The position numbers and the translations under genes were made by a program. A DNA stretch of 64,000 nucleotides, from the IMG/VR virus record IMGVR_UViG_3300042301_004035. One strand, 5' to 3'. This DNA is from a virus (lineage: Duplodnaviria; Caudoviricetes). The notes below the pieces were generated by a model that was not told where the DNA came from, did no database searches, and was given only the letters and a program-made list of their open reading frames with translations. This document shows positions 3,001 through 9,414 of this stretch, in pieces (position 1 is the first letter of the stretch; each line of letters starts with the position of its first letter).

Positions 3001-4720
3001 TGTTTAGGACGTTTGGCTGATCATTTAGGTGGAATACACTATTGCAATATTCTAAAAATGAGAATGAACAAAAAACTATATTACCTTGAGAAAGCTTATC
3101 GCCACTTGAAGTGAAGGTGAATGTTGCTCCAGCTGGTCTTTTTGCACCTGCAGTTGGGCCGACATTGAAAAAAACTTTACTTTGATCAACGGAAACTATA
3201 CTTCTATATGTGCCCTTTTTAACCCCAAAGATTCCATAATCTTCATTATTAAAAATTGTTGAATCAATATTCCATCCACCATTTTTATTTTCATCTAAAA
3301 TATTTGATTCAAGATATTCGTAATATGAATCTACGACTTGCGCTTGAAAGCCAGCAACTTGTATATCATTAAATACAAAAGGTTTATCTCCTGGGTACGA
3401 AGACGCGTCTACCAGTAACGTCCCGTTTTTTAACGTTACATATTCACTAATAAGATCTGTTGCTTTTTGGGTTAAGGCACTCGTAGGACTAAACGAAAGG
3501 ATATCAAAATCAGCTAAACTGTCAACAGACTGTACGTCCACCATCCAATATCTTGCTTCTGATTTACTTGGCTTGCCACCCTCTATCGACTGAATCCAAA
3601 CCTTAGATTCAACCTCTGGATTTTCAAAAATATAATTTGACATGTTAAAAGCTGATTTTTGTAATCTATAAAAAACATATGGATTTATATTTTCAAGTGC
3701 AGTTGTATCAGTAGAGTCATATAGGACTCCGACATTGACTGTCCTTTGCTTTATCTGACCTGACTCTTCTGCGTCTTTTGAGTTGTCCATGATGCCATAG
3801 TTGACTGATTGGTTTACTCTTGCTACTAATCTCCAGTTGAAGACCTCATAGTTTCTATTGTCGAATAAAGCTTTTCTAGGAGCAAAAACTTGATAGCTGT
3901 TATAGTCTAGGTTATGAGAAAATATTTCAGAATATTTTTTATTAAACTTTTTTATAGAATAAATCTTTTTACTATGCTTTGATATAACGGAAGCTTCTTC
4001 TGCAACTTCTGAATAGAACGGAACAGCATTAATTGTTTCAACGTATCTTAATGTTTGAGATACCACTTCTCCATCCTCATCAAGAATGATTTTATCGTAA
4101 ACTAACTTTAAGTTTATTGGATCAGAAGAATCTAAACCGATGAAAACCCTATACGGTATTTCTGTATTTGTAGAATTTGATTCAGTTAAATAAGGATCTA
4201 AAAGAATTTTATATTTTTTTCTTCCAGTATTCTTATCTATATATTCTTGGTTTTGAGAATCTATAACTTTAATATTTATATTCTTGTAATAAGAAGCATC
4301 GTGGTAGTCGTCTAGATCATTAATGCCATAACCAGACGGAGCTGAAATAAAGTATCTACTAATATAATAGTGATGTAGGAAGTCGTTTTCGTTCACTGAA
4401 TCGGAATATATTCTTTCAGTAGTAAAATCTTTAGAAAGAAAAGTATCGCTGATAGTTAAATCAGAGGTGTGGAAATCTGTATTGCCGTCTTTGTCTTGCA
4501 GGATCCCCATCTCGTTGGCAAAGAATATTTTTGTTTCATCTTGTGAAACAATTTTGTTTTCTGCTATCGTGTCAGATATATCTATAATCTTTAAATTGTC
4601 TATTGGGTTTAACGGCTGACTGGAAAAATAAGCTAACCCTGCTCCATTGCCTGGGATAAAGTTGCCAATCTTAACGGCTTCTTCATTCCCTATGGTTGTT
4701 ATATTATTAAATTTTTCCAT
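2..4720 (-). CDS. Large baseplate/tail structural protein (>1,573 aa, 3' end outside window) with a peptidoglycan-binding (PG_binding_1-like) domain
   Basis: Not in the ORF track. ATG at 4720 overlaps the upstream TAA (TAATG), preceded by GAGG. I read the frame (MEKFNNITTIGNEEAVKIGNF...) to position 2 and found no stop. At ~1640-1930 it reads WRVGAKHPYVKYIKCVMQVAGFY...TYTAGLSAAVKEFQTR...DGVVDSETKSLM. Confidence 0.85.
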   Translation of the reverse strand, partial: MEKFNNITTIGNEEAVKIGNFIPGNGAGLAYFSSQPLNPIDNLKIIDISDTIAENKIVSQDETKIFFANEMGILQDKDGNTDFHTSDLTISDTFLSKDFTTERIYSDSVNENDFLHHYYISRYFISAPSGYGINDLDDYHDASYYKNINIKVIDSQNQEYIDKNTGRKKYKILLDPYLTESNSTNTEIPYRVFIGLDSSDPINLKLVYDKIILDEDGEVVSQTLRYVETINAVPFYSEVAEEASVISKHSKKIYSIKKFNKKYSEIFSHNLDYNSYQVFAPRKALFDNRNYEVFNWRLVARVNQSVNYGIMDNSKDAEESGQIKQRTVNVGVLYDSTDTTALENINPYVFYRLQKSAFNMSNYIFENPEVESKVWIQSIEGGKPSKSEARYWMVDVQSVDSLADFDILSFSPTSALTQKATDLISEYVTLKNGTLLVDASSYPGDKPFVFNDIQVAGFQAQVVDSYYEYLESNILDENKNGGWNIDSTIFNNEDYGIFGVKKGTYRSIVSVDQSKVFFNVGPTAGAKRPAGATFTFTSSGDKLSQGNIVFCSFSFLEYCNSVFHLNDQPNVLNINASASVYEQSDYNSMPGFVEGPFKLLYNSLMYALYSRSQATRKIDLRPSLYNFVGPWESSWVMDQSALMDDEKTKYFTNISNSSSTVQYARDLLGNDDSLKKYYLRKVSESLPGSLSSQLISPSVVSNNTDFYIEITNPDIIISSPSFTANELVQSKVLSSTLENFSTSYYLYKLLNKDQKIFAFTEKISNKLYIPEGYGPYEVREMGEIKVGGNKKLNSSISPSSYFKSYPFRFGVKYSRISTTEKALAFSGTVKTKLNLTYKAQGALRSVKVVGTVTRNYAGTNRLITHPAPDADPIIIEGQNVLDVPCTNIVSGRQLDVSGRLPVISELSAQNFKSFEYTWDIEAATAGYPIATWRVGAKHPYVKYIKCVMQVAGFYNMNKTLVNAKTKVKEQPENNTTYTAGLSAAVKEFQTRVKLGTLGAGAVPRVPLLYPPDGVVDSETKSLMAYVIKFWSRYEPIYYNRLISLAAEHDVSRFVESVFKQIEASQINSGGSYRRISFTGNVSNSPSTIEDFIFFSIPNPENYQKVNKIRIKLEGAPWNKVKLVGYGYSPEDPIQGGQKRFAANTIFKAYAVNKATNGVTLVGNNLEIDLAGVSTATCKNMFVRIQTNGRQLGGPWGSLAEGFGIVGITADLKTKDTSEPPKDSIEDTPFDYNKVHQAFPSIDKPEIEELANYWLLDQDGIQDVNLSWSGNKLVSSLDGHLIYTTLTNKFYVWSNASQNWTEDIISFFNPTPDENQEINPINLDLDEVERSIVYKDLIQTTDVYISATAYLTENFDNLSSLSEYSVDYNVGYLSGKNVLLDSFSYNYLGKSYSKTLSSQTPIIDTSLNALLNEQVVSDPNTIDTIQNNGITINFANPVAVSIDNGTSVELISVTSKVNAQSVTPSSVCTVFYHGNVPNILTPTQPKSSGFKIKTSATYYSGRDTYLSEENIIDTYSLINTDGEFIEKVNSITVNDGLILLCDSSGKPVGVPSPEDVGADIISTTQYDPSFTFDI

Positions 4721-9414: not shown

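What the first reader, a model, noticed from the sequence alone, without database searches (positions are those of the whole stretch)
4720..9414. Dispersed Ala-Thr-Pro motif repeated 16 times in one baseplate protein: candidate virion-modification or docking sequon
Seen: 16 ATP tripeptides (e.g. HATPELATPV, GATPDSNYQGATPDV, NATPL, SATPF, YATPS, LATPR, TATPG, SATPN, IATPN, GATPSATPN) plus 8 STP, scattered rather than tandem, often followed by N and encoded by different codons (GCT ACA CCG, GCA ACG CCA, GCT ACT CCA). Composition alone would give roughly one or fewer (rough estimate). The neighbouring giant proteins lack this enrichment. Known: Thr next to Pro/Ala is a favoured site for actinobacterial O-glycosylation and for Ser/Thr kinases, and some mycobacteriophages glycosylate their virions with their own glycosyltransferases. 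Inference: ATP(N) is a short linear motif that marks surface loops for glycosylation, prolyl hydroxylation or phosphorylation, or for binding many copies of a partner protein.
Basis: partly seen in the sequence, partly recalled or inferred. Interest (0 to 1): 0.8.

Follow-up and report, generated by a model that had tools for sequence, protein, structure and literature searches.

The report
Ala/Ser-Thr-Pro tags on phage baseplate protein
One outer baseplate/fibre protein of an uncultured 177-kb aquatic phage, and all of its more than 120 relatives, carries about 20 scattered copies of the three-residue tag Ala/Ser-Thr-Pro (chance gives about one); the tag is kept and repeatedly re-invented in loops, so something probably reads it, most likely a sugar-adding enzyme, but no chemistry has been shown.

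Summary
ORF 4720-9414(-) has 16 ATP and 8 STP, against 0.39 and 0.75 expected; 20,000 shuffles gave at most 4 ATP. No other ORF of the 177-kb genome is comparably enriched.

The true motif is [A/S]-T-P, not ATP(N). It is encoded at the protein level with varied codons. It is 20-fold enriched in all 121 family members (95-32% identity) and is still present in relatives at 25-33% identity.

About 13 sites are ancestral. At least 83 other sites were gained, and 39 of those were retained in six or more sequences, against 1-9 for control tripeptides. Sites lie in coil, often just before a beta-strand. Several lie in loop insertions that the motif-free Bacillus-phage homologues lack.

This behaviour fits a tag read in trans. 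O-glycosylation of the Thr is the favoured reading, and it is unproven.

- A complete relative with 19 motifs has no PF13640 oxygenase.
- Another complete relative with 22 motifs lacks the Anp1-like GT.
- No kinase was found in any of five genomes.
- Two GT2 genes are core to the group; one weakly resembles the flagellin O-GlcNAc transferase GmaR.

A structural loop-capping role remains a strong rival. The scan has noted similar but different candidate sequons in other aquatic phages.

The parts
4720..9586 (-). Whole gene of the motif-rich distal baseplate/fibre protein (about 1621 aa when read through the +1 site; stop codon at 4720-4722)
   Evidence: The upstream 48 codons starting at ATG 9586 match the N-termini of uninterrupted homologues (P0015, P0020 and others).
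9439..9442 (-). CGG-A +1 frame break. Relatives have an in-frame Gly codon (GGN) at exactly this place.
   Evidence: L020, L028 and L031 read ..LNL[IL]-G-D.. in one frame. L012, L013, L015, L016, L017, L018 and L027 keep CGGA.
7948..9048 (-). N-terminal alpha/beta domain (residues 123-489), shared with Bacillus phage 0305phi8-36 gp162 and KLEB27-3 gp042. It carries six of the motifs.
   Evidence: tblastn and BLASTP at 22-29% identity, E 1e-13 and 3e-23. phrog_21059 virion structural protein, E 1.4e-16.
4993..5727 (-). Two tandem Ig-like (intimin/invasin-type) domains, residues about 1230-1474
   Evidence: VIA-align: Z 12.0 to 1f02_I (165 aligned, rmsd 9.5) and Z 11.6 to 6tqd_A (98 aligned, rmsd 2.8).
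4723..4986 (-). C-terminal tail (residues 1477-1564), highly conserved but of low model confidence. It holds five motifs in the last 65 residues.
   Evidence: pLDDT is below 50 at model residues 718-775 and 786-805. The conserved columns are listed.
9376..9384 (-). STP, residues 11-13
   Evidence: Present in 51 of 121 homologues.
8929..8937 (-). ATP, residues 160-162 (ancestral site)
   Evidence: [AS]TP in 114 of 121. Coil. Falls in a gap of both Bacillus-phage alignments.
8914..8922 (-). ATP, residues 165-167
   Evidence: 48 of 121. Coil. Falls in the same insertion relative to the Bacillus phages.
8389..8397 (-). ATP, residues 340-342 (ancestral site)
   Evidence: 99 of 121. Coil after a helix.
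8362..8370 (-). ATP, residues 349-351 (ancestral site)
   Evidence: 105 of 121, with P in 121 of 121.
8323..8331 (-). STP, residues 362-364 (ancestral site)
   Evidence: 74 of 121, plus TTP in 15 and SSP in 11.
8146..8154 (-). ATP, residues 421-423
   Evidence: 47 of 121. Lies immediately before a short helix in a low-pLDDT region.
7915..7923 (-). ATP, residues 498-500, in a clade-specific loop insertion
   Evidence: 28 of 121, with 60 rows gapped. Lies in the hairpin loop 490-503.
7849..7857 (-). ATP, residues 520-522 (ancestral site)
   Evidence: 87 of 121. Coil directly before strand 523-530.
7654..7662 (-). ATP, residues 585-587 (ancestral site)
   Evidence: 73 of 121. Coil.
7471..7479 (-). 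ATP, residues 646-648
   Evidence: 61 of 121. Lies at the end of strand 642-646.
7411..7419 (-). STP, residues 666-668 (recent, clade-specific)
   Evidence: 9 of 121. The only copy inside a predicted strand.
6970..6978 (-). STP, residues 813-815
   Evidence: 44 of 121. Coil.
6298..6306 (-). ATP, residues 1037-1039 (ancestral site)
   Evidence: 107 of 121, with P in 121 of 121. Coil between strands. Kept in the 25%-identical L094.
6115..6123 (-). STP, residues 1098-1100, in a clade-specific insertion
   Evidence: 11 of 121, with 72 rows gapped. Low-pLDDT loop.
5857..5865 (-). ATP, residues 1184-1186 (ancestral site)
   Evidence: T and P invariant in 121 of 121. Coil right after a strand.
5794..5802 (-). 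STP, residues 1205-1207 (ancestral site)
   Evidence: 75 of 121. Kept as ATP in L094.
5260..5268 (-). STP, residues 1383-1385, in a loop of an Ig-like domain
   Evidence: 25 of 121. Coil directly before a strand.
5035..5043 (-). ATP, residues 1458-1460, in a loop of an Ig-like domain
   Evidence: 48 of 121. Coil between strands.
4906..4914 (-). ATP, residues 1501-1503 (ancestral site)
   Evidence: 90 of 121.
4861..4869 (-). ATP, residues 1516-1518
   Evidence: 16 of 121.
4849..4857 (-). ATP, residues 1520-1522
   Evidence: The realigned site is present in 73 of 121 (col 3851).
4768..4776 (-). STP, residues 1547-1549 (ancestral site)
   Evidence: 103 of 121.
4750..4758 (-). ATP, residues 1553-1555 (recent gain)
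   Evidence: 13 of 121. Replaced by SDY, STY and others elsewhere. One inferred gain.
57818..58624 (-). It is a possible but non-universal partner.
   Evidence: Protein-atlas look-alikes at 0.99-0.96, named Anp1 / nucleotide-diphospho-sugar transferase. No Pfam hit. Present in G001 and G002, absent from G003 and G004.

Best explanation
[A/S]-T-P is a real, protein-level, selected short linear motif. It is confined to one family of distal baseplate/fibre proteins of a group of uncultured aquatic myoviruses of about 180-215 kb. The protein itself looks ordinary. It has an N-terminal attachment domain shared with Bacillus phage 0305phi8-36 gp162, then beta-rich domains that include two Ig-like domains, then a conserved C-terminal tail. 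The motif sits in loops, typically just before a beta-strand, and several copies lie in loop insertions that motif-free homologues lack. About 13 sites are ancestral and many more have been gained and lost, so every member keeps about 12-27 copies. My best reading is that the tripeptide is a tag read in trans. The most likely form is an O-glycosylation site on the Thr, served in the cytoplasm by phage-encoded GT-A glycosyltransferases, which would give the outermost baseplate protein a sugar coat. Shown here: the enrichment, the conservation, the turnover, the coil location and the presence of the glycosyltransferases. Inferred: that an enzyme reads the motif, that the enzyme is a glycosyltransferase, and what the coat would do (shielding, stability or adsorption).
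For: 1. Enrichment: 24 [AS]TP against 1.1 expected, the only such ORF in the genome, and the only such ORF within +-10 kb in 78 related contigs.
2. Family-wide strictness: 2376 observed against 118 expected (20-fold). Every other [AS]xP or [AS]Tx class is 2.5-fold or less. At the 40 main sites the first residue is A 1305 / S 871 / T 135, the middle residue is T 2176 / S 120, and the last residue is P 2176 against about 70 others.
3. Flanks carry almost no information (0.5 bit or less).
4. Turnover: parsimony on a FastTree tree gives 13 ancestral sites and 83 gained sites. 39 of the gained sites are retained in six or more sequences, against 1-9 for 19 control tripeptide classes. New copies also sit in clade-specific insertions (residues 498 and 1098).
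5. All but one copy lie in coil or at strand ends in the two AF2 models.
6. Bacillus-phage homologues of the N-domain lack the motif, and the loops at 160-167 and 340-351 align to gaps there.
7. Other beta-rich virion giants of the same phage (more than 9000 aa) have 1 copy against about 3.7 expected, so this is not a general structural idiom.
8. The phage group is rich in glycan enzymes. Two GT2 genes are core (67-81% identity in four relatives) and absent from the two Bacillus phages. The 237-aa GT2 has its best PDB sequence match to GmaR, the Listeria flagellin O-GlcNAc transferase, with the DXD motif aligned (E 1.2e-6). There is also a GT17-methyltransferase-GT2-TauD cluster and an Anp1-like GT.
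9. No ThyA-type hydroxymethylase is present that would point to T4-style DNA glycosylation.
Against: No modification has been observed, and no data here can show one. The 13 ancestral sites are among the most conserved residues of the protein (T 0.82, P 0.90; T1185/P1186 invariant). That is more typical of structural residues than of most modification sites. Hydrophobic residues are enriched two to five residues after the Pro, so there is a recurring structural context. The two core GT2 genes lie in the replication/nucleotide-metabolism module beside DnaB, ThyX and RNR, not beside the target, and they could act on DNA or on host glycans. The GmaR match is weak (31 bits) within a very broad family. 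No known bacterial O-glycosylation system uses an [AS]TP sequon, and cytoplasmic flagellin systems have no defined sequon (PMC12645811).
Confidence: 0.4

Rival explanations
1. The motif is an intrinsic structural element. [A/S]-T-P would be a loop-to-strand (or helix N-cap) capping element peculiar to the fold or assembly of this protein. The Thr hydroxyl would cap the backbone, the Pro would fix the conformation or a cis peptide bond, and the small residue would allow a tight turn. Nothing reads it in trans.
For: The ancestral sites are among the most conserved residues and survive to 25% identity. The motif usually precedes a beta-strand or a short helix. Hydrophobic residues are enriched after it. 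Thr is replaced mostly by Ser, so the hydroxyl is kept. No universally linked protein-modifying enzyme has been identified.
Against: A general capping idiom should also occur in the other beta-rich virion proteins of the same phage, but they have 1 copy in more than 9000 aa. Homologous N-domains of the Bacillus phages fold without it, and the motif loops are insertions there. The exact tripeptide has been gained repeatedly at non-homologous positions and in new insertions, four- to forty-fold more often than controls. There is no extended repeat or domain periodicity.
Confidence: 0.3
2. The motif is a docking or handling site. It would be bound non-covalently by many copies of a partner, such as a decoration or fibre protein, an assembly chaperone or a prolyl isomerase, or it would contact the host surface.
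For: The evidence is the same motif-like behaviour as for the best explanation. Five copies cluster in the conserved but unmodelled C-terminal tail, which may fold only on binding.
Against: Three residues with uninformative flanks give very little binding energy or specificity. No candidate partner was identified. Sites are scattered over all domains rather than on one face.
Confidence: 0.12
3. The motif is a prolyl hydroxylation site. The Pro of T-P would be hydroxylated by the phage PF13640 (P4H-type) 2OG-Fe(II) oxygenases, possibly followed by glycosylation of the hydroxyproline, as in the Skp1 pathway of protists (recalled from memory, not tested here).
For: This genome has six to seven PF13640 genes, four of them in the window at 48.6-57.8 kb beside an Anp1-like GT. 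G003 and G004 have 7-8. Pro is the most conserved residue of the motif.
Against: The complete relative G002 (209.7 kb, terminal repeats) has 19 motifs but no PF13640 match by HMM or by protein search. G001 has only one. Copy number (0-8) does not track motif number. The strict need for Thr and for A/S is not explained. AP and SP are not enriched. Gly after Pro is only 1.5-fold enriched.
Confidence: 0.07
4. The motif is a proline-directed Ser/Thr phosphorylation site, acted on by a phage or host kinase.
For: [S/T]-P is the minimal proline-directed kinase motif (general knowledge). Thr is replaced mostly by Ser.
Against: No Pkinase-family gene is present in any of five related genomes. Proline-directed kinases are not typical of bacteria. 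The A/S requirement at -1 is unexplained.
Confidence: 0.03
5. The pattern is an artefact: chance, amino-acid composition, a cryptic tandem repeat, or a DNA-level signal (for example a GCNACNCC site).
For: None found.
Against: None of 20,000 shuffles came near the observed count. The motif is encoded with all wobble variants and Ser replaces Ala. The DNA pattern occurs only in frame 0 of the coding strand. Spacing is irregular, 4-224 residues. It is conserved across independent metagenomes.
Confidence: 0.01

Closest known systems
Virion O-glycosylation of mycobacteriophages by phage-encoded glycosyltransferases (Freeman et al. 2023, Cell Host Microbe, as cited in PMC12619734)
   Same: In both cases the phage carries its own cytoplasmic glycosyltransferases, and virion proteins are the proposed target.
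   Different: There the glycans were demonstrated and sit at the C-termini of the capsid and tail-tube subunits. Here nothing has been demonstrated. The target would be a single baseplate/fibre protein. The sites are a strict tripeptide dispersed over about 20 loops.
Listeria monocytogenes GmaR, a cytoplasmic GT2 that O-GlcNAcylates flagellin (PDB 22ao; PMC9638930)
   Same: It is the best solved-structure sequence match of the core 237-aa phage GT2, with the DXD motif aligned. It is a cytoplasmic, lipid-independent O-glycosyltransferase acting on a protein that is later assembled outside the cell.
   Different: The match is only 31 bits over about 140 residues within the very broad GT2 family. 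No sequon is known for flagellin systems (PMC12645811). The phage enzyme is a bare catalytic domain.
Sequon dynamics of viral envelope glycoproteins (N-X-S/T glycan shields; general knowledge, not tested here)
   Same: There is a short strict motif. A few sites are deeply conserved and many clade-specific sites are gained and lost, while the total number is maintained.
   Different: The chemistry (N- versus putative O-linkage), the compartment and the host machinery all differ. The link is by analogy only.
Bacteroidota general O-glycosylation sequon D-(S/T)-(A/I/L/V/M/T)
   Same: It is a three-residue O-glycosylation sequon in bacteria.
   Different: The residues differ. That system is periplasmic and lipid-linked, whereas phage tail proteins assemble in the cytoplasm. 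The motif here has A/S before and P after the Thr.
Bacillus phage 0305phi8-36 gp162 and KLEB27-3 gp042 (phrog_21059, virion structural protein)
   Same: They have a homologous N-terminal domain (22-29% identity) and the same gene position after Baseplate_J.
   Different: They are much shorter (372 and 590 aa). They carry no [AS]TP enrichment (0 and 1 copies). Their genomes lack GT2 and PF13640 genes.
Asp-box and other short structural motifs that recur in beta-rich proteins (general knowledge)
   Same: A short conserved peptide recurs at loop-strand junctions of beta-rich domains.
   Different: Such motifs occur across many families and at topologically equivalent places. This one is restricted to one protein family, has irregular placement and shows rapid gain.

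Membership tests
0305phi8-36 gp162-like baseplate-associated virion protein (phrog_21059) | Significant sequence similarity of the N-terminal domain | tested here: met
   phrog_21059 E 1.4e-16. BLASTP E 1e-13 to gp162 and 3e-23 to KLEB27-3 gp042.
0305phi8-36 gp162-like baseplate-associated virion protein (phrog_21059) | Gene position downstream of Baseplate_J in the tail module | tested here: met
   Baseplate_J is at 10872-12038, one ORF lies between, then this gene. The order is the same in the Bacillus phages.
Phage virion O-glycosylation (mycobacteriophage type) | Phage-encoded glycosyltransferases | tested here: met
   Three GT2, one GT17 and one Anp1-like GT in this genome. Two of the GT2 genes are core to the group.
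Phage virion O-glycosylation (mycobacteriophage type) | Glycan shown on virion proteins | not testable with these tools
   This needs mass spectrometry or glycan staining of virions or of recombinant protein.
Phage virion O-glycosylation (mycobacteriophage type) | Target sites at the C-termini of the capsid and tail-tube subunits (as summarised in PMC12619734) | tested here: not met
   The motif is confined to one baseplate/fibre protein and dispersed along it. The other virion ORFs are not enriched.
Prolyl 4-hydroxylase substrate (PF13640 oxygenases) | A P4H-type oxygenase co-inherited with the substrate | tested here: not met
   Complete G002 has 19 motifs and no PF13640 or oxygenase homologue.
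Prolyl 4-hydroxylase substrate (PF13640 oxygenases) | Hydroxyproline present | not testable with these tools
   This needs mass spectrometry.
Proline-directed Ser/Thr phosphorylation | A Hanks-type kinase available in the phage | tested here: not met
   PF00069 is absent from G000-G004. Host kinases could not be examined because the host is unknown.
Bacteroidota D-(S/T)-(A/I/L/V/M/T) O-glycosylation sequon | Asp before and an aliphatic residue or Thr after the hydroxy residue | tested here: not met
   The residue before Thr is A, S or T in 94% of the Thr-Pro occurrences at the 40 main sites, and D in 9 of about 2390. The residue after is Pro.
Pfam-defined tail-fibre repeats or any other Pfam family | A match to a Pfam model | tested here: not met
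   No Pfam-A family at E <= 0.01 for the whole protein.
Bacterial Ig-like (intimin/invasin, Big_1-type) domains | Fold similarity of residues about 1230-1474 | tested here: met
   Z 12.0 (1f02_I), 11.6 (6tqd_A, rmsd 2.8 over 98) and 11.3 (1cwv_A). PF02369 is precomputed on two homologues.

The most novel reading that the evidence does not exclude
[A/S]-T-P is a true cytoplasmic O-glycosylation sequon. A phage-encoded GT-A enzyme (one of the two core GT2s, GmaR-like) reads it, and further phage transferases and methyltransferases extend the glycan. The result would be a glycan coat on the outermost baseplate protein. This would be the first defined peptide sequon for lipid-independent O-glycosylation in bacteria or their viruses, and a sequon-driven 'glycan shield' on a phage adsorption organ.
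Probability: 0.27. Interest if true: 0.8.

Novelty: new variant of a known kind. Interest (0 to 1): 0.6.

Why it matters
If the tag is a modification site, it would give a simple, portable three-residue sequon for cytoplasmic protein glycosylation, which could be useful for glyco-engineering. It would also show that uncultured aquatic phages decorate a specific part of their adsorption apparatus. That bears on host range, particle stability and escape from binding or degradation in the environment. If the tag is structural instead, it is an unusually clean case of a three-residue element that is re-invented repeatedly within one protein family. Either way the finding yields a direct experiment: express the protein with and without the phage transferases, map the Thr and Pro masses, and mutate the motif.

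Tried and rejected
1. DNA-level motif: rejected. Wobble positions vary, the pattern is in frame 0 only, and Ser codons replace Ala codons.
2. Hidden domain repeat: rejected. Flank logos carry 0.5 bit or less and spacing is 4-224 residues.
3. Other motif-rich proteins. None was found in the genome apart from two weak cases (3 in 255 aa; 4 in 622 aa, VanY/TMP-like), and none in the +-10 kb flanks of 78 related loci.
4. Fold assignment of the N half. Foldseek against PDB gave nothing at E <= 0.001, and VIA-align gave a best Z of 5.2. The 800-residue model is too large for a fair test.
5. PDB sequence search of the whole protein: only chance-level hits.
6. Protein-atlas look-alikes for the whole protein: best score 0.77, uninformative.
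7. Complex prediction of the 237-aa core GT2 with the C-terminal 70 residues: no verdict (score 0.00, controls not run). This counts neither for nor against binding.
8. Literature searches for a Thr-Pro motif or for hydroxylation on phage tails found nothing relevant.
9. The 'moraphage' lineage (PMC12619734) was considered as the identity of this group, but none of five genomes has HSP70, which that paper reports in all moraphages.
10. Host assignment failed. Related contigs are binned into MAGs of three different phyla.
11. Solvent accessibility of the motif could not be computed because model coordinates are not exposed. Only DSSP strings were used.

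
Full report
**What is there.** The finding's span is a 1564-codon ORF on the minus strand (4720-9414). It lies in a long run of minus-strand virion genes, in this order:
- a Baseplate_J gene at 10872-12038 (PF04865, E 3e-13);
- one further ORF;
- this gene;
- another ORF of more than 1573 codons.

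The only cultured relatives are Bacillus jumbo phages. In those, a shorter protein in the same position (0305phi8-36 gp162, a 'low copy number virion structural protein', and KLEB27-3 gp042) shares the N-terminal domain at 22-29% identity. The label 'baseplate/fibre protein' is therefore reasonable.

The window belongs to a 177-kb IMG/VR virus record, about 84% complete.

The gene really begins at the ATG at 9586. Its first 48 codons match the N-termini of uninterrupted homologues, and the frame must shift +1 at CGG-A (9442-9439). Relatives carry a plain Gly codon at that place.

- There are 16 ATP and 8 STP, against 0.39 and 0.75 expected.
- In 20,000 shuffles the maxima were 4 ATP and 7 [AS]TP.
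- 28 of the 29 Thr-Pro dipeptides are preceded by A, S, T or G.
- No other ORF of the window or of the whole genome is comparably enriched. Four other giant virion ORFs, more than 9000 residues in total, have a single copy.
- Codons vary at all wobble positions, and the nucleotide pattern occurs only in the coding frame. The signal is therefore in the protein.

**It is a family trait.**
- A search of 5.8 billion proteins gave 156 hits. The 120 listed (95-32% identity, nearly all full-length) each carry 12-27 [AS]TP against about 1 expected.
- Over the family the tripeptide is 20-fold enriched, while every neighbouring pattern ([AS]xP, [AS]Tx, xTP) is 2.5-fold or less.
- At the 40 most used alignment sites the first residue is A 1305 / S 871 / T 135. 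The second is T 2176 / S 120. The third is P in 2176 of about 2250.
- Flanks carry 0.5 bit or less. There is a mild preference for G or S before the motif, N or S after it, and hydrophobic residues two to five places after the Pro.
- More distant relatives on MAG-binned phage contigs (25-33% identity) still have 11-12 copies, several at the same positions.
- The Bacillus-phage homologues have none or one. The loops holding ATP160/ATP165 and ATP340/ATP349 align to gaps in them.

**Conservation and turnover.**
- At 13 sites inferred ancestral, T and P are 0.82 and 0.90 conserved. Flanks are about 0.5-0.68 and the protein mean is 0.51. T1185/P1186 are invariant in 121 sequences.
- The motif also occurs at about 100 different alignment columns.
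- Parsimony on a FastTree tree infers 83 sites absent at the midpoint root. 39 of these are retained in six or more sequences.
- Nineteen control tripeptide classes gave 0-2 ancestral sites and 1-9 retained gains.
- Some copies lie in clade-specific insertions (residues 498 and 1098).
- The pattern is thus a conserved core plus continual re-invention, with a stable total number.

**Structure.** Two AlphaFold2 models were built (residues 1-800, pLDDT 74; residues 760-1564, pLDDT 72).
- The N-terminal part is an alpha/beta region followed by beta-sandwich domains.
- Residues about 1230-1474 form two Ig-like domains: Z 12.0 to intimin 1f02 (165 aligned), and Z 11.6 to 6tqd (rmsd 2.8 over 98).
- All motif copies but one lie in coil or at strand ends, commonly right before a strand.
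- Five copies lie in the last 65 residues, which are highly conserved yet modelled with pLDDT below 50.
- The motifs do not form a regular repeat. Successive copies are 4-224 residues apart.

**Candidate readers.**
- The transferase has no Pfam hit, but its atlas look-alikes are Anp1 / nucleotide-diphospho-sugar transferases (0.96-0.99).
- The four oxygenases are PF13640 members, and the genome has six or seven.
- Neither is consistently linked to the motif:
  - G002 (complete, 209.7 kb with terminal repeats) has 19 motifs but no PF13640 gene by HMM or protein search.
  - G003 (complete, 22 motifs) and G004 lack the Anp1-like gene.
- No Pkinase gene exists in any of five genomes.
- Two GT2 genes are universal: 67-81% identical in all four relatives and absent from the Bacillus phages.
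- They sit in the replication/nucleotide module, so a role on DNA or host glycans is possible. However, no ThyA-type hydroxymethylase is present.
- The 237-aa GT2 has its best PDB sequence match to GmaR, the cytoplasmic flagellin O-GlcNAc transferase of Listeria. The match is E 1.2e-6 with the DXD motif aligned. This is a lead, not proof.
- A GT17-methyltransferase-methyltransferase-GT2-methyltransferase-TauD cluster is present in four of five genomes.

**Interpretation.** The following points fit a tag that is read in trans better than a fold-intrinsic element:
- the strict tripeptide with uninformative flanks;
- its restriction to one protein;
- its absence from motif-free homologues of the same fold;
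- its placement in loops and insertions;
- its repeated gain.

O-glycosylation of the Thr by phage transferases is the most economical version.

The deep conservation of a dozen sites and the recurring loop-to-strand context keep a structural capping role as a serious rival (0.3). The other rivals are:
- docking or chaperone binding (0.12);
- prolyl hydroxylation (0.07);
- phosphorylation (0.03);
- artefact (0.01 or less).

No known bacterial O-glycosylation system uses this sequon (PMC12645811). Demonstrated phage virion glycosylation concerns C-termini of mycobacteriophage capsid and tail-tube proteins (as cited in PMC12619734).

**Context from the scan.** Earlier notes of this scan report other short motifs ([S/T]-G-x-T, S/T-G-S, S-G-hydrophobic) enriched in outer virion proteins of other uncultured aquatic phages, also read as candidate sequons. 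Those notes are unverified and concern different motifs and genomes. The present motif and protein family were not noted elsewhere.

Noticed in passing
window 9439-9586 (-); also L012, L013, L015, L016, L017, L018, L027 versus L020, L028, L031: The gene starts at ATG 9586 and is broken by a +1 shift at CGG-A (9442-9439). Seven related contigs from other metagenomes (56-93% identical proteins) keep CGGA at this spot. Three others have an in-frame GGC, GGT or GGA (Gly). The break is therefore conserved and not an assembly error, which fits the CGG-N recoding noted elsewhere in this genome.
   Followed up: partly
window 48621-58624: There is an island of four PF13640 2OG-Fe(II) oxygenases (48621-49496, 53313-54032, 54102-54722 on the + strand, 57207-57815). 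It also holds a DUF6065 protein (52590-53294) and an Anp1-like GT-A transferase (57818-58624), and it sits between the tail and head genes. The number of oxygenase genes ranges from 0 to 8 among related complete or near-complete genomes.
   Followed up: partly
outside the window: L091:1684-5918 (genome 25683-29917): A glycan-enzyme cluster: GT17, two methyltransferases, GT2, a third methyltransferase and a TauD-family dioxygenase. GT17 is present in G001, G003 and G004 but not in G002.
   Followed up: partly
outside the window: L090:4673-5386 and L090:6972-7775 (genome 48672-49385, 50971-51774): Two GT2 glycosyltransferases are embedded among DnaB, a nucleoside deoxyribosyltransferase-like gene, ThyX and RNR. 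They are core genes of the group (67-81% identity), more conserved than the motif protein itself. The 237-aa one is most similar in the PDB to GmaR.
   Followed up: partly
window 9603-10853 (-): The ORF between Baseplate_J and the motif gene matches PHROG 284, labelled 'exonuclease' (E 2e-46), over its full length. It has no Pfam hit. Given its place in the baseplate module, the label looks doubtful.
   Followed up: no
window 4723-4986 (-), residues 1477-1564: The C-terminal tail is among the best conserved parts of the family, with many invariant W, Y, Q and G residues. It is nevertheless modelled with pLDDT below 50. It may fold only in an oligomer or on a partner.
   Followed up: no
genome 141085-141852 (-) and 18680-20548 (-), outside the window (L088, L089): Two further ORFs have a mild [AS]TP excess (3 in 255 aa; 4 in 622 aa; p about 2e-4 each). 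The first has no family match. The second has weak VanY and tape-measure-like matches.
   Followed up: partly
L092, L093, L094: Phage-like contigs encoding relatives of this protein are binned into MAGs labelled Cyclobacteriaceae, Saccharibacteria and Iamiaceae. This is probably mis-binning, and the host of the group remains unknown.
   Followed up: no
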